Assembly (NCBI GenBank): GCA_964016885.1
Contig: OZ024744.1
Coordinates: forward strand, 100,378,001 to 100,442,000
Length of the DNA: 64,000 bases
Reading direction: 5' to 3'
DNA from: Eledone cirrhosa
Taxonomy: Eukaryota
Shown here: piece after piece, positions 18,498 to 62,966 of the stretch
Numbering within the stretch: the first letter of the stretch is position 1
Layout: each line of letters begins with the position of its first letter
Translations under genes and position numbers: made by a program
Notes under the pieces: model-generated
The model's input: only the letters and a program-made list of their open reading frames with translations
Database searches by the model: none
What the model was told of the DNA's origin: nothing

Positions 18498-20080
18498 ATG
18501 TAGATAAATCTACCAAAATATACGGTAGTGTCCAATCCGTATGAAGAACTCAATGTAATCCAAATATCATGAAAAGAGAAAATGTATTCAAAAATTTTTC
18601 CGATGAAAATCACAGGAAAACAGAGTCAAGATAAATTAATAAAAACAATGAATAAAAACAAAGAAACAGTTCCTTATATTAAAAAATTCATCATTTTACG
18701 ATCGTTTCTAGGATATATATGTTTATGTTGGTATGTATATCATATAGATCTATGTAAAAATTTTACAAACTATCAGAGGGAATATATATACTTACACATA
18801 TATATGCTGTCTTCAGAAATATATATATATATATGTGTGTGTGTGTGTGTGTGTGTATATATATATATAGTAATAATAATAAATTTGAAGACTAAAATCC
18901 AAAGAGGGCTCGATAAGGATAAATATATATCAAATATATAAGAACTGTAGAGCAAATATTTATTAAAATAACAGTTTAAGCAAAGAATCGCTCCTTTCAC
19001 CCTTAACAGGATCTTAAGCAGCGATTCTTTGCTTAAACTTTAATCTGTTATTTTAATAAATATATATATATATATATACACTTATATTTTACATATTATT
19101 ATAATTAGTTTTTTTAATTTAGTTAACCTATAATTAGTACTTTACTACAGAGAACTTGATAATTTTATTTCCCTCTTACAGCTCTCTTTTCCTAAAATTA
19201 ATACCTAAAAGTATACATATAAATTAATTTAATTTCCTGTTATGAATCTAGATTCCTTGTAGTTTATATAAGATTGGTATTTCTCACTACTACCCTTATC
19301 CCAAAATTTGATTTTCCTTCGTTTTTAACAACATTCTTTAATAACATCTAATTCTTATTTATCACATCCATATGAAGTAATATAAATTTATCCCTATAAG
19401 TATACCTATCAATTAATTTAATTTATTGTTATAGATCTAGATTCCTTGTGGTTTAAATAAGATTGGTATTTCTAACTTACCCTAAAATTTTACTTTCCTT
19501 CGTTTTTTTAACACTATTCTTTAATAACATCAAATTCTTCACCGGCTTGACCTCTTTTCATCTCCAAAGTATTCTTTTCATTCAAAGTATTCTTTCCACT
19601 CAAAACTTAAGTCTGCACCCCTCTACCCCTAAATTAAATTTCTACTACTACTATTCTATCAACTTGACCTCTTACTACTTTTCCATTGGTCAATTCAAAA
19701 CCTGTTCCCAAACAGACCTATTATATTAAATCTTTGTTGTTTTTTTCAATAAACAAATCTCATCATTTCTGAAGACAGCATATATATGTGAAGATATGTA
19801 TATTTCCTCTGATAGTTTGTAATATTTTTACATAGATCTATATGATATACATACCAACACACATATATATCCTAGAAACGATCGTTAAATGATGAATTTT
19901 TAATATAAGGAATTTGTTCTTTGTTTTTATTCATTGTTTTTATTAATTTATCTTGACTCTGTTTTCCTATGATTTTCATCGAAAATTTTTGAATGCATCT
20001 TCTCTTTTTATGATATTTGGATTACATTGAGTTCTTCATATGGATTGGACACTACCGTATATTTTGGTAGATTTATCTAC
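18498..20080. mobile_element. Foldback element (arms ~18498-18820 and ~19765-20080) flanked by (TA)n, with hammerhead motif; Penelope-like remnant
   Basis: GTAGATAAATCTACCAAAATATACGGTAGTGTCCAATCC... is the reverse complement of ...GGATTGGACACTACCGTATATTTTGGTAGATTTATCTAC over ~320 bp. Confidence 0.75.
19760..19895 (+). ncRNA. Type I hammerhead ribozyme-like fold with long stem II
   Basis: TCATCATTT-CTGAAGA-[..ATATATATGTG...CACATATATAT..]-GAAA-CGATCG-TT-AAATGATGA: 9-bp stem I, palindromic stem III; base of stem II mismatched. Confidence 0.7.
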
Positions 20081-20252
20081 ATATATACTTGTGTATATAT
20101 ATATTTGTATATATATATATATATATTTGTATCATCATCATCATCATCATCATCATTTTACGTCCGCTTTTCCCTGCTTGCAAGGGTATATATATATTTG
20201 TATATATATATATATATATATATACATTTGTATATATATTTGTATATATATA

Positions 20253-21092
20253 CAGGGTGCGGACGATATTTGTTCGCAATTTTCAACTGCTAATTTTATG
20301 CAAATTTTTTTTACTTCCATTGTCACTCTTGTCTTCATAAAAACAGTGACTATATTTCCATTATTTATTTTCAGAATAATTGATTATGAATAATTTTGAA
20401 CCTCCAAATTTGTGGAAGAGACACGGAGTTCTTCTTGGAATCTGAGCCGGGAGGACAAATAAGGAAATTTCAGGCTCCTAGAACAACAGGTGGCAGCTGT
20501 CTCATCCAAAGACGTGCCCAGAGTCATGCAGACAAAGTTTCCAGTGACAACATTGGTCTTAGGTGTCGTCAGCTGTCAAGGTGACGTCATGCCACCTCAC
20601 TCCTTCCCTGAGGGCCTCAAGCTGAACACCGATGGCTACATCCGCGTTCTGAGCGAGGTAGTAAAGCCCTGGATCGACCAGGTAGCTGCAGGTAGGCCGT
20701 ACGTGTGGCAGCAAGACTCAGTGCCCTGCCATACCAGCCGAAAGACCCAAGCCTGGCTGTCAAAGAACTTCATTGACCACTCTTCACCTGACATCTGGCC
20801 TCCCAGCTCGCCTGACTGCAACCCCCTCGACATCTTTGTGTGGGGCGCAGTGGAACGAGACACCAACAGATCTAGCTGCAATACGAAAGACGATCTGAAG
20901 ACCTGGATCAGAAGTGCCTTTAGGGGCCTAAGTTCCGAGGCCACCTTGAGGCCGTCATCAAAGCCAGTGGCGAGTTTATCGAATGAAGAAGTCATGAAGA
21001 CAAACTGTTTGATAAATAAATCTTAAAAAATAAAACTACTGTGTTATTTTTTCCTAGACACTAATCTTGCGGTCAATATCATCCGCACCCTG
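20253..21092 (+). mobile_element. Internally deleted Tc1/mariner element, DD37D (maT) family, in a (TA)n tract
   Basis: TIRs CAGGGTGCGGACGATATT / AATATCATCCGCACCCTG with flanking TA; ORF 20490-21026 has WQQDSVPCH...WPPSSPDCNPLD with 37 residues between the 2nd and 3rd Asp. Confidence 0.9.
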
Positions 21093-21278
21093 TATATTTA
21101 TATATATATATATATATATATATATATATTTGTGTATATATATATTTGTATGTATATATATATATATATATATATATATATTTGTATATATATATATATA
21201 TTTGTATATATATATATATATTTGTATATATATATATATTTGTATATATATATATATATTTGTATATATATATAAATA

Positions 21279-60044: not shown

Positions 60045-60547
60045 TTAAGTTAACAGCTTTAGCTGATAACTAACTCCTTTCGCAAAGATATTTCTCGAGA
60101 AATATGTTTGATTTGTTTCAATCTTTCAAAAGAAACAACTAAGAATTTGGAAGGTTTTATTCGTGAAATAACTTTTTCATTAAGTTGGTGATAAGAATAT
60201 GAGAGAGAGAGAGAGGGGGAGCAAGACGGAGTGAGGGGGATGAGAGGGGAGAGAGAATGAAAAAGTGATATATGTATATATATATATATATATATAATCA
60301 TCATCATCATTTAATGTCCATTTTCCAAGCTTGCATGGGTTCAATGGGTTGTCACATTATGAGATAATATAGGTCAGGAGAGCACGTCTTGCTCACACAA
60401 ATCTCTGTGTGTGTGTGTGTGTATATATATATATTTATATATATATATATATGCAGGATAAATGTAGGCAAAAGGCCAAGGAAAACAATGCTCAATCTAT
60501 TCCAAGAGAGCTTATTTAGTATATTTAAAATTTCATTTTATATATAT

Positions 60548-61160
60548 ACTAGCAGAATGGCCCGACTTTGCTCGGGATTTGCTCTAGGGTTCTTATATAT
60601 TTTATATATATTTATCTTTATCGAGCCTCGGGAAATAAATGTTTGTTTATATCTTGTTATTGTGTATAGAAAAATATCTGTACACGAATATATAATTATA
60701 TATATATATATATATTAAAATCACAGATTAAAGTTTAAGCAAAGAATCGCTGCTTTCACCCTTAACGGGATCTTCTGAAACTAAAAAAATCAATCTGTGA
60801 ATGCAGAAGTAAATATTTCGAAAAATGTTACACACTATATATATATATACACACACTATATATACATATATACACACAAACACACAGCATCATAATGTCG
60901 TAATGCAGACAGCTAGACATACAGACAGATATTATAAGGGTGAAACGTTATATCTATGTATCTATCTAAAAAGAAAGAGAAAGAAAGATAGAGAGAGATC
61001 GCTAAATCGCCTAATGCGGTCCCTAGGGCGTTGAAAATTTGAAATATTTTTCTCTCAAAACACTCACAGGACCATAAGTATTACACGTTTGAAAATAATC
61101 GGTTGGGTGCTTCTCGAGTTTTAGGGAGTCAGACAGACATTCCTGTTTTAGATATATATA
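60548..61160 (+). mobile_element. Possible Helitron/Helentron-like non-autonomous element with nested sequence
   Basis: Start ACTAGCAGAATGG plus CCCGACTTTGCTCGGG hairpin; end AATCGGTTGGGTGCTTCTCGAG...CAGACAGAC...; resemblance from recall only. Confidence 0.4.
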
Positions 61161-61167
61161 TATATAT

Positions 61168-62966
61168 AACGAAGGAAATGTGGTAAGGAACCAGGTGGAC
61201 CATAACGCACCAAAGTACTCAATACTTAGGGTAGTAGAGTGGGTAATAGGAAAATAGTCAGGACCCCGACGGCAGAGCTCAAGCCGTTTCGACGGCTAAT
61301 TCTGGACTAAATGAAAATTTTTATCCTGGTATATGAATAGCCGAGCTTCTCAGGGAGTAATTCCATATATGGTAAAAGTGATTGTCACAAGGATTGGTCA
61401 GAAGTTTGTTGTTGAGACACATAATTCTATCATGGCAATTTGTGGAAGGAAGGGGTAGCTGAACCTGCCAGTAGAAGAGGGAGAGGGGGTGGAGGAAACG
61501 CAGTCGCGCGTTGATAGTGCCAACTACAGCAGGGCAGGAGGTCAAGGAAGTATACTAGGGAGGGGGAGGGGGAGGAAGTCGAAACAATAAGTAAAACAAT
61601 ATGGGGTAAATATATAGAAAAATACCGAGAATGTTAAAAATCAATTAAATATAAAAAAAACAATTTCTGGTTACTATAACCTAAGGACAGCTATCAAGTC
61701 TCTCACTGGTACTGCTAGGCTAAAGAAAGGTTTACTAGGTGGGACGGAATTATAATGAGACCCTTTTAAGAGGTATTAGTAATCAACTGAGTATATATTA
61801 CGGTGACGGGTCAACATACTAAAGAAACTACCATGAAATAATAATTCAGACTAATACGAAATAACTGTTTCCACCCTAGGCACAAGGCCAGCAACCACCC
61901 AGTGCAAAAAATAAACTAATATGAAATAATAATTCAGAATCCCGAAAATGAATACTAATACTATCTCTAAGGGTGCCACCACGATACAAAAATTCTAGTG
62001 CAAACTACATAAATGCTCGTACGAAGTATATGAAAAATTTGATACGGAAAATTAATTCAGAATCCCCCCCATCAAAAAAAAATACTGATATACGAGAAAT
62101 TAAAGCAAAGATACCACTAAGAAATGTGTGTGTGTGGGGGGGGGGGGGGCTGAATTTTTCATATACTTCATACGAGCATTTAGGTAGTTTACACTAGAAT
62201 TTTTGTATCGTAGCGGCACTCTTAGAGATAGTATTAGTATTCTTTTTCGGGATTCTGAATTATTATTTCGTATTAGTTTATTTTTTGCACTGGGTGGTTG
62301 CTGGCCTTGTGGCTAGGGTGGAAACAGTTATTTTGTATTAGTCTCGGGACTTTGAATTATTATTTTGTGGTAGTTTCTTTAGTATTTTGGCCCCCCACTT
62401 GTTGACCCGTCACCGTAATATATACTCGGTTGATTACTAATACCTCTTAAAAGGGTCTCATTATAGTTCTGTCCCACCTAGTAAACCTTTCTTTAGCCTA
62501 GCAGTACCAGTGAGAGACTTGATAGCTGTCCTTAGGTTATAGTAACCAGAAAATGTTTTTTTTATATTTAATTGATTTTTAACATTCTCGGTATTTTTCT
62601 ATATATTTACCCCATATTGTTTTACTTATTGTTTCAACTTCCTCCCCCCCCTCCCTAGAATACTTCCTTGACCTCCTGCCCTGCTGTAGTTGGCACTATC
62701 AACGCACGACTGGGTTTCCTCCACCCACTCTCCCTCTTTCTTCTACTGGCAGGTTCAGCTACCCCTTCCTTCCACAAATTGCCATGATAGAATTATGTGT
62801 CTCAACAACAAACTTCTGACCAATCCTTGTGACAATCACTTTTACCATATATGGAATTACCCCGAGAAGCTCGGCTATTCATATACCAGGATAAAAATGT
62901 TCATTTAGTCCAGAATTAGCCGTCGAAACGGCTTGAGCTCAGCCGTCGGGGTCCTACTCGTTCCTA
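61168..62966. mobile_element. 1.7-kb foldback (arms ~61260-62040 / ~62152-62956) with terminal hammerhead-like motif and a unique ~90-nt tail; Penelope-like remnant
   Basis: AGGACCCCGACGGC...GAAGTATATGAAAAATT versus AATTTTTCATATACTTC...GCCGTCGGGGTCCT; identical peptides in ORFs 61321(-) and 62690(+). Confidence 0.85.

What the first reader, a model, noticed from the sequence alone, without database searches (positions are those of the whole stretch)
20025..61241. Shared TTGAGT tail motif ~50-60 nt from the 3' (TA)n junction of unrelated foldback elements
Seen: ACTCTGCTTTG-TATTGAGTAC (23177-23197), CACTCTACT..TATTGAGTGCT (30177-30204), minus-strand CACTCTACT..TATTGAGTACT (61241-61214), GTTGAGTGCT (24805), CATTGAGTTCT (20025) and variant TATTCAGTG (~51073). 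Each lies about 50-60 nt before the terminal TA run. The 30177 and 61241 tails also share TATGG..CACCT...TACCA. Inference: a conserved cis-signal for RT/endonuclease recognition or TA-site priming. I know of no description of it.
Basis: partly seen in the sequence, partly recalled or inferred. Interest (0 to 1): 0.75.

Follow-up and report, generated by a model that had tools for sequence, protein, structure and literature searches.

The report
Twin hairpins mark Penelope start sites
The shared motif is one strand of a small predicted RNA hairpin that sits twice at the front of Hydra-type Penelope jumping genes of distantly related animals; inserted copies end a few bases before one hairpin or the other, so the pair likely tells the element's reverse transcriptase where to start on each DNA strand.

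Summary
The motif is real, but it is not defined by distance to the (TA)n run. All six cited foldbacks are 3' stumps of Hydra-clade Penelope-like elements (PLEs). TTGAGT is the 3' strand of a covarying bulged hairpin, RCUCY..R-UH-GAGY-RCU. Full-length junctions carry two copies between hammerhead and start codon: 977 genome matches against 1 control, and 24 of 31 metagenome relatives. Insertion ends lie mostly 6-8 nt 5' of copy 1 or copy 2 (63 of 66 ends in randomly chosen loci fall in these two windows). In 21 of 21 mapped foldbacks, one arm ends at each site; the unmapped 20025 foldback is an exception. The hairpins likely position the reverse transcriptase at two internal starts, which would explain the one-sided PLE tail. 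The bulge resembles the TAR arginine-sandwich motif (untested). Against: bare TTGAGT was not enriched in held-out loci, the 51073 variant is the wrong site, one family has a reduced second copy, and there are no RNA or bench data. Not found in 8 literature searches or Rfam. This scan reached the same reading earlier on other DNA.

The parts
18500..20080 (.). Foldback of a Hydra-clade PLE family; both arms carry the tail (long+long, the exception), with about 940 nt of other sequence between the arms
   Evidence: Hydra ORF upstream in 7 of 20 family loci
19763..19892 (+). Type I hammerhead-like motif with very long stem II
   Evidence: read by pattern
19956..20035 (+). Hairpin motif copy 1 with long apical insert (ACTC-TG ... 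CA-TT-GAGT-TCT); mirror copy at 18626-18545 on minus
   Evidence: other copies' inverted arms stop at about 19951 (query 1-187)
23047..23239 (.). Foldback, short arm + long arm; ends map 8 and 8 nt before copies 1 and 2 of the reference junction
23105..23155 (+). Canonical type I hammerhead motif
23177..23198 (+). Hairpin motif copy 1
   Evidence: 86% to reference L299, whose subfamily runs into a Hydra ORF in 16 of 25 loci
24469..24865 (.). Foldback, short + long; ends 7 and 11 nt before copies 1 and 2; hammerhead motif 24673-24736
24784..24814 (+). Hairpin motif copy 1, 5' strand decayed in this copy (intact in relatives L328, L329)
29954..30256 (.). Foldback, short + long; ends 7 and 8 nt before copies 1 and 2; degenerate hammerhead-like motif 30033-30121
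30178..30204 (+). Hairpin motif copy 1
   Evidence: (L324 shows copy 2 and the Hydra ORF start)
50719..51124 (.). Foldback, short + long by inspection; hammerhead motif 50818-50929 with long stem II
   Evidence: (Hydra ORF upstream in 7 of 20 family loci)
50987..51053 (+). Hairpin motif copy 1 with long apical insert (ACTC-CG ... CG-TA-GAGT); the real homologue, not 51074
53374..53526 (.).
61169..62964 (.). Foldback of an abundant Hydra-clade family with near-identical young copies; long end 61169 (6 nt before copy 2), short end 62964 (8 nt before copy 1); hammerhead motif 61263-61358 on minus
61214..61240 (-). Hairpin motif copy 1

Best explanation
The motif is the 3' strand of a covarying bulged hairpin that Hydra-clade Penelope-like elements carry twice in their 5' leader, and each copy likely binds the element's RT-endonuclease and sets an internal start of reverse transcription 6-8 nt on its 5' side. 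Shown: junction order hammerhead - end 1 - copy 1 - spacer - end 2 - copy 2 - ATG; genomic ends at these two points; one arm of a foldback at each point; frequent TA in the element at the end. Inferred: a read-through RNA binds protein at both hairpins; the endonuclease nicks both strands of a (TA)n run; each 3' end pairs with the UA just before a hairpin and primes a cDNA; the two 5'-truncated cDNAs are joined head to head. The result is a palindrome whose one-sided tail is the stretch between the two starts. Speculative: the invariant bulged U forms a U.A-U triple and binds an arginine, with the conserved RxR of the ORF (R486, R488) as candidate.
For: Architecture: a full-length 3531-bp tandem shows both copies, 8 and 6 nt after the two ends. 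The two-copy pattern matches 977 places against 1 control; the first 30 of these, all 30, precede a Hydra ORF start, as do 11 of 12 more. Ends at (TA)5+ that map on 22 reference junctions fall -3..15 nt (mode 6-8) before a copy in 52 of 54 (26 at copy 1, 26 at copy 2), 11 of 12 held-out, and 10 of 10 window cases. Meanwhile hammerhead-to-copy-1 varies 47-72 nt, copy spacing 71-99 nt and copy-2-to-ATG 36-87 nt. Foldbacks: 15 of 15, 1 of 1 and 5 of 5 have one short and one long arm; 31 of 33 in query-selected loci. Both arms share the subfamily signature in 15 of 16 foldbacks of the 61241 family (by eye). Other organisms: 24 of 31 metagenome Hydra loci have two copies; 9 TA ends have no copy and 4 have exactly one copy after the hammerhead, and 5 mappable ends lie 6-11 nt before a copy. 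Published Hydra consensi of coral, sea cucumber and copepod show the hairpin (read by eye). Covariation: G-C/A-U and C-G/U-A swaps; a 2-nt bulge gives 74% Watson-Crick pairs against 13-20% for bulges of 0, 1, 3 or 4; bulged U in 110 of 111; 0 of 500 shuffles reach the score. Precedent: the anole PLE starts internally at two sites that delimit the tail (PMC11167929).
Against: No biochemical or RNA-end data: no run with raw RNA reads was offered. Single-sequence folding is weak: z from -2.3 to 0.0, the hairpin is absent from several minimum-energy folds, and the L106 junction folds 5' strand 1 onto 3' strand 2 instead. In the subfamily related to 23177, copy 2 is cut down to a GCAC/GTGC stem without the bulge, yet ends still map 6-9 nt before it. 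The 20025 foldback and 2 of 33 query-selected foldbacks are long+long. The CTC and GAG letters were search anchors, so their invariance is by construction, and the shuffles ignore relatedness. TA follows the end in 32 of 52 cases (background 11% over junctions, 19% in the two windows), so microhomology contributes. Gene conversion between arms could also make arms alike.
Confidence: 0.7

Rival explanations
1. The hairpins direct RNA cleavage or termination 6-8 nt upstream of themselves, and RT starts at the resulting RNA 3' ends as in LINEs, not internally.
For: Genomic ends alone cannot separate RNA ends from internal starts; no RNA reads were available. PAc hammerhead cleavage is protein-assisted (PMC11167929), so protein-dependent RNA cutting exists in PLEs.
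Against: PAc starts internally on templates with longer 3' ends. Cutting at site 1 would remove the tail from that RNA, so short+long foldbacks would need two differently cut RNAs each time; 21 of 21 mapped foldbacks are short+long.
Confidence: 0.12
2. The hairpins act as single-stranded DNA or cDNA signals for the GIY-YIG endonuclease, which trims or resolves the intermediate at the two points.
For: The D. virilis tail was needed for endonuclease recognition of plasmid DNA (as reported in PMC11167929), and Craig et al. ascribe the tail to EN-mediated resolution (PMC8557442). Covariation does not tell RNA from ssDNA.
Against: G-U type pairs outnumber A-C type on the sense strand only weakly (24 against 14, hand count). 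The TA microhomology at the ends and the PAc data fit priming on RNA better.
Confidence: 0.08
3. The hairpins serve another 5'-leader job (translation of the uncapped, hammerhead-cut RNA, or packaging), and ends are set only by nearby UA microhomology.
For: They lie 22-123 nt before the ATG. TA follows most ends.
Against: TA makes up 11% of all junction positions, yet 63 of 66 random-locus ends fall in two 19-nt windows that move with the hairpins across 8 families.
Confidence: 0.08
4. Chance or passive inheritance of a hexamer with no function.
For: Bare TTGAGT is not enriched in held-out loci.
Against: Full motif enriched 9-fold in held-out loci; compensatory changes; kept among elements whose proteins are only about 40% identical; 37 sense hits in flanks against 3 antisense.
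Confidence: 0.02

Closest known systems
Hydra clade of C-terminal EN+ Penelope-like elements (Craig et al. 2021, PMC8557442; passages, section 11, supplement parts 1, 2, 52, 53 of 59 and two word searches seen)
   Same: Single RT + C-terminal GIY-YIG ORF with CxCX5C linker, DKT, CxxC and CxH; type I hammerhead; (TA)n targets; inverted 5'-truncated copy; optional tail. Their consensi Hydra-2_Amil, Hydra-1_Ajap (two copies), Hydra-2_Ajap and Hydra-1_Crog contain the hairpin.
   Different: In the parts I saw, the paper does not mention the hairpin, its duplication or its link to the two ends. Tails here are about 70-143 nt, not 30-40. One unit is 3.5 kb.
PAc (Poseidon of Anolis carolinensis; Frangieh et al. 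2024, PMC11167929; abstract, main text and part of the methods read, parts 1-2 of 4; supplements not seen)
   Same: Two internal RT start sites that delimit the tail; both strands nicked and extended; AT-rich target; predicted dimer.
   Different: PAc starts lie in an AC-rich stem-loop 111-118 nt inside the ORF, and no repeated binding motif is described in the parts read. Here the starts are in the 5' leader, 71-99 nt apart, each just 5' of its own conserved hairpin.
HIV TAR / 7SK arginine-sandwich motif (PMC6189040, PMC6140463; passages seen)
   Same: Paired purine, bulged U, then G-A-G pairing with C-U-C; a two-nucleotide bulge version forms the U23.A27-U38 triple when bound by Tat mimics.
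   Different: Here the bulged strand is on the 3' side of the hairpin, the loop is free in length, and an unpaired RCU follows. No triple or arginine binding is shown. The resemblance would be convergent, not homology.
Hepatitis B virus epsilon (PMC10534774; abstract and outline seen)
   Same: A cis-acting stem-loop bound by the RT that triggers reverse transcription.
   Different: Epsilon serves packaging and protein priming (the latter recalled). This motif is a doubled signal beside target-primed starts.
LINE-1 twin priming (recalled, no call)
   Same: Two primings from the two target strands on one RNA give an inversion.
   Different: There the second priming site is not fixed; here both sites are fixed by conserved hairpins.

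Membership tests
Hydra-clade PLE | Single ORF, telomerase-like RT plus C-terminal GIY-YIG | tested here: met
   717-aa ORF; model pLDDT 90, top fold match TERT 3du5. Pfam gave no hit; the endonuclease was recognised by its motif.
Hydra-clade PLE | CxCX5C linker, DKT, RWK-type motif, CxxC and CxH around the catalytic E and N, no CCHH | tested here: met
   Read (RWR in the 61241 family). All six cited families, or a close subfamily for 23177, run into ORFs that match the profile.
Hydra-clade PLE | Type I hammerhead near the 3' end | tested here: met
   Pattern matches in 5 of 6 cited elements, degenerate in 30177; several with very long stem II. Rfam did not report them.
Hydra-clade PLE | Insertion into (TA)n, inverted 5'-truncated copy, one-sided tail | tested here: met
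Hydra-clade PLE | Generally shorter than 3 kb, tail 30-40 bp | tested here: inconclusive
   One unit is 3531 bp; tails about 70-143 nt. The paper gives these as tendencies, not as criteria.
Hydra-clade PLE | Phylogenetic placement with the published Hydra RTs | not tested
   No tree built; the published sequences were only read.
Neptune or Naiad PLE | CX2-5CxxC linker and CCHH; N-terminal EN for Naiad | tested here: not met
   No hit of a Neptune EN profile in the 51073 and 20025 family loci; the 61241 family ORF lacks these motifs.
TAR/7SK arginine-sandwich motif | Paired purine, bulged pyrimidine, then G-C and A-U pairs | tested here: met
   Bulged U in 110 of 111, 2-nt bulge best; GAG and CTC were anchors.
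TAR/7SK arginine-sandwich motif | U.A-U triple and arginine intercalation | not testable with these tools
   Needs NMR or binding assays. Candidate RxR conserved in 49 of 50 aligned ORFs at each position.
Known Rfam family | Covariance-model match over the hairpins | tested here: not met
   No match over them in window 13500-64000 or in 13 loci.

The most novel reading that the evidence does not exclude
Hydra-clade PLEs use a tandem pair of TAR-like arginine-binding bulged hairpins as a ruler: two RT-endonuclease molecules sit on one RNA, one per hairpin, and prime from both strands of a (TA)n run in a single event. This is programmed twin priming that makes both the tail and the foldback, with the ORF's RxR segment as a Tat-like RNA-binding motif.
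Probability: 0.35. Interest if true: 0.85.

Novelty: new variant of a known kind. Interest (0 to 1): 0.7.

Why it matters
How PLE reverse transcriptases, the closest relatives of telomerase, pick their template and why they leave a one-sided tail and head-to-head repeats is an open question; Craig et al. name it as the next task. This gives a short, clade-wide RNA signal with a fixed distance to each start site, an intact ORF to test it with, and sharp predictions: move a hairpin and the start moves; remove one and one arm class disappears. It also gives a simple marker for finding Hydra elements and their non-coding derivatives.

Tried and rejected
Rfam scans: no family over the hairpins. Pfam on the ORF: nothing. 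GIY-YIG Pfam search of the genome returned Neptune-type elements, not the families in question. The first end-mapping run was swamped by TA runs in the references and was redone with trimmed references (replaced by 57). The MAFFT alignment of mixed-length hairpins misaligned the 5' strands and was not used; equal-length groups were used instead, 12 and 11 of the 111 sequences. Homodimer prediction of residues 1-490 gave no answer. Public runs: one RNA run with a small share, contigs only, uninformative about RNA; a run of unrecorded kind shows TA loose ends at the same two sites (61 and 326 contigs), but it may be the assembly's own sample. Rejected by eye: an H/ACA-type reading of the tail (second hairpin not conserved), DNA transposon or Helitron ends (PLE ORFs found), a hammerhead part (the motif lies 47-72 nt past the core). 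A TTGAGTAC hairpin look-alike in the Naiad_Mmer consensus was not followed up. Copy 2 was not located for the 51073 and 20025 families. The pattern search for copy 2 of the 23177 family failed because that copy is reduced.
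Full report
Observation. The window lies in a 3.0-Gb genome. All quoted strings are present. Five of the six cited elements are (TA)n - palindrome - unique tail - (TA)n; the 18500-20080 element has the tail on both arms. In the window, 6 of 14 TTGAGT lie 40-79 nt before a (TA)4+ run, against 0.5 expected. In 59 arbitrarily placed 10-kb loci the count is 25 of 222 against 7.3, with 8 of 222 for the reverse complement. In 40 held-out loci the hexamer alone is not enriched (11 of 323 against 9.2), but the fuller motif R-T-H-GAG-Y-R-C is (11 of 43 against 1.2; control 2 of 43). 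In the first set that motif gave 30 of 81 against 2.7, with a raised control of 9 of 81; it was derived after seeing that set, so the held-out set is the clean test.

What the elements are. Longer copies of the 61241 family run upstream into an ORF with RT thumb, CxCX5C linker and a GIY-YIG endonuclease without CCHH (at least 8 of 25 loci; output cut). These are the marks of the Hydra clade of PLEs (PMC8557442 section 11). A full-length tandem has a 3531-bp unit and a 717-aa ORF, whose model matches TERT best. The 51073 and 20025 families run into Hydra-type ORFs in 7 of 20 loci each. The 24805 and 30177 families do so through L248, L328, L329 and L324. The 23177 element is linked through a subfamily 86% alike, with the ORF in 16 of 25 loci. 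Each cited element has a hammerhead-type motif upstream of the tail, degenerate in 30177. So the foldbacks are the known tandem/inverted PLE insertion form (PMC8557442, PMC3846280; passages).

What the motif is. At the unit junction the order is hammerhead, short end, 8 nt, hairpin 1, spacer, long end, 6 nt, hairpin 2, ATG. A two-copy pattern that excludes the 61241 and 23177 families matches 977 places against 1 for the reversed pattern. The first 30 matches all precede a Hydra ORF start, as do 11 of 12 further ones picked for family diversity. In 77 Hydra-type loci from metagenomes, a strict descriptor hits 37 times on the sense strand in the flanks, 10 times within the matched range and 3 times antisense. 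Of the 31 loci with 130 nt or more before an aligned ATG, 24 have two copies 54-82 nt apart, 5 have one and 2 none. The published consensi Hydra-2_Amil, Hydra-2_Ajap, Hydra-1_Crog and Hydra-1_Ajap (two copies) contain the hairpin; Hydra-1_Amil ends in a weak match and Hydra-1_Obim shows none clearly (by eye). Six word variants hit the Hydra file 4 times, all in these hairpins, and the far larger Naiad and Chlamys files 3 times, without a partner strand (line breaks can hide matches). The 28 Neptune-type loci examined lack it at their own ends. Over 111 distinct instances (7 of 88 metagenome anchors had no partner in range and were dropped) the consensus is RCUCY..R-UH-GAGY-RCU. The outer pair is G-C in 79 and A-U in 21; the next pair C-G in 69 and U-A in 26; the bulged U is in 110; a 2-nt bulge gives 74% Watson-Crick pairs in the inner stem against 13-20% for other bulge sizes. 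Two equal-length subsets give 98.8% and 95.5% paired cells, 0 of 500 shuffles as high, with slid controls at 18-64%. In 20 host junctions copy 1 is always A-U and copy 2 G-C at the outer pair, which favours local over cross pairing. Caveats: CTC and GAG were anchors, the shuffles ignore descent, and single-sequence folding is weak. The loop tolerates long inserts (51073, 20025).

Link to insertion ends. I mapped ends that abut (TA)5+ onto 22 reference junctions of 365 nt from 8 families. They fall -3 to 15 nt (mode 6-8) before a hairpin in 52 of 54 cases in the first random set (26 at copy 1, 26 at copy 2), 11 of 12 held-out, 10 of 10 in the window, and 167 of 169 in query-selected loci, which are biased and may repeat places. 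Other spacings vary widely: hammerhead to copy 1 47-72 nt, copy to copy 71-99 nt, copy 2 to ATG 36-87 nt. The ends therefore follow the hairpins. In foldbacks with both ends mapped, one arm is short and one long in 15 of 15, 1 of 1 and 5 of 5, and in 31 of 33 query-selected cases; none is short+short. The 51073 element is short+long by inspection and the 20025 element long+long. Both arms carry the same subfamily signature in 15 of 16 foldbacks of the 61241 family; the window's own copy is the exception (by eye). In metagenome loci, 9 of 13 TA ends have no hairpin after the hammerhead and 4 have exactly one; 5 could be mapped, at 7, 6, 8, 7 and 11 nt (the last read by hand where the script skipped a variant copy). 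The element has TA right after the end in 32 of 52 random cases, against 11% background.

Mechanism. Shown: the architecture, the two ends, the short+long rule, the covariation. Inferred: each hairpin binds the ORF protein and holds the RT active site 6-8 nt upstream; both strands of the palindromic (TA)n target are nicked; each 3' end anneals to UA and primes; the two truncated cDNAs are joined head to head. This fits the anole PLE, which cuts and extends both strands and starts internally at two sites that bound the tail (PMC11167929). Copying of existing foldback transcripts would give short+short products, which were not seen. Speculative: the bulge has the local layout of the TAR/7SK arginine sandwich (PMC6189040, PMC6140463; passages), and the ORF has a basic segment with two nearly invariant arginines before WFNPP. 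Against a strict requirement for the bulge, the subfamily related to 23177 has only a GCAC/GTGC stem as copy 2.

Novelty. The elements, the foldback form, the tail and two-site internal initiation are known. I found no description of the hairpin pair or of its fixed distance to the ends in eight full-text searches, in the passages and supplement parts read of PMC8557442, in part 1 of 4 of PMC4209133, in part 1 and a word search of the 2026 retrozyme preprint, or in Rfam. The library lacks most subscription papers and Repbase; the supplements of PMC11167929 and of the preprint were not seen and may bear on this. Earlier notes of this scan reached the same reading on other DNA; I saw them, and they are not independent evidence. 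Verdict: an undescribed, well-supported cis-element of a known retroelement clade, function inferred; interest 0.7.

Noticed in passing
window 62986-63253 (minus); L031, L034, L042, L047, L049, L342: Three Neptune-type PLE families carry ACTCGTG 4-10 nt after their short end. In the single full junction seen (L342 minus, near 1104) this strand can pair with a complementary run just after the long end, so one stem would enclose the second start, like the PAc stem-loop (n=1).
   Followed up: partly
L304, L305: About 221-bp tandem unit holding hammerhead, hairpin 1, reduced hairpin 2 and the ORF start of the 23177-related family: a retrozyme-like non-coding derivative. L253-L257 hold shorter tail duplications.
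   Followed up: no
window 19763-19892, 50818-50929, 61263-61358: Hammerhead motifs with very long stem II, well beyond those in the published Hydra table.
   Followed up: no
window 61249-61262 against 62951-62964: The two arms of the 61241 foldback differ in the last dozen bases by subfamily-diagnostic letters, suggesting a chimeric tail.
   Followed up: partly
L106 and other places listed: Many copies of the 61241-family protein segment score identically, several with 784-aa open frames and tandem 3531-bp units: a young, probably active family.
   Followed up: partly
window 45191-48313: 1040-aa open frame that looks like an endonuclease-RT LINE (RTE-like by recalled resemblance), with related fragments at 21507-22765 and 51312-52490.
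   Followed up: no
window 1-13519 and 33818-41408: Large tandem arrays: about 100-bp unit, and a low-complexity array with kilobase open frames.
   Followed up: no
window 55412-56227: 271-aa minus-strand frame that looks like the C-terminal zinc-knuckle and nuclease part of another non-LTR element (recalled resemblance).
   Followed up: no
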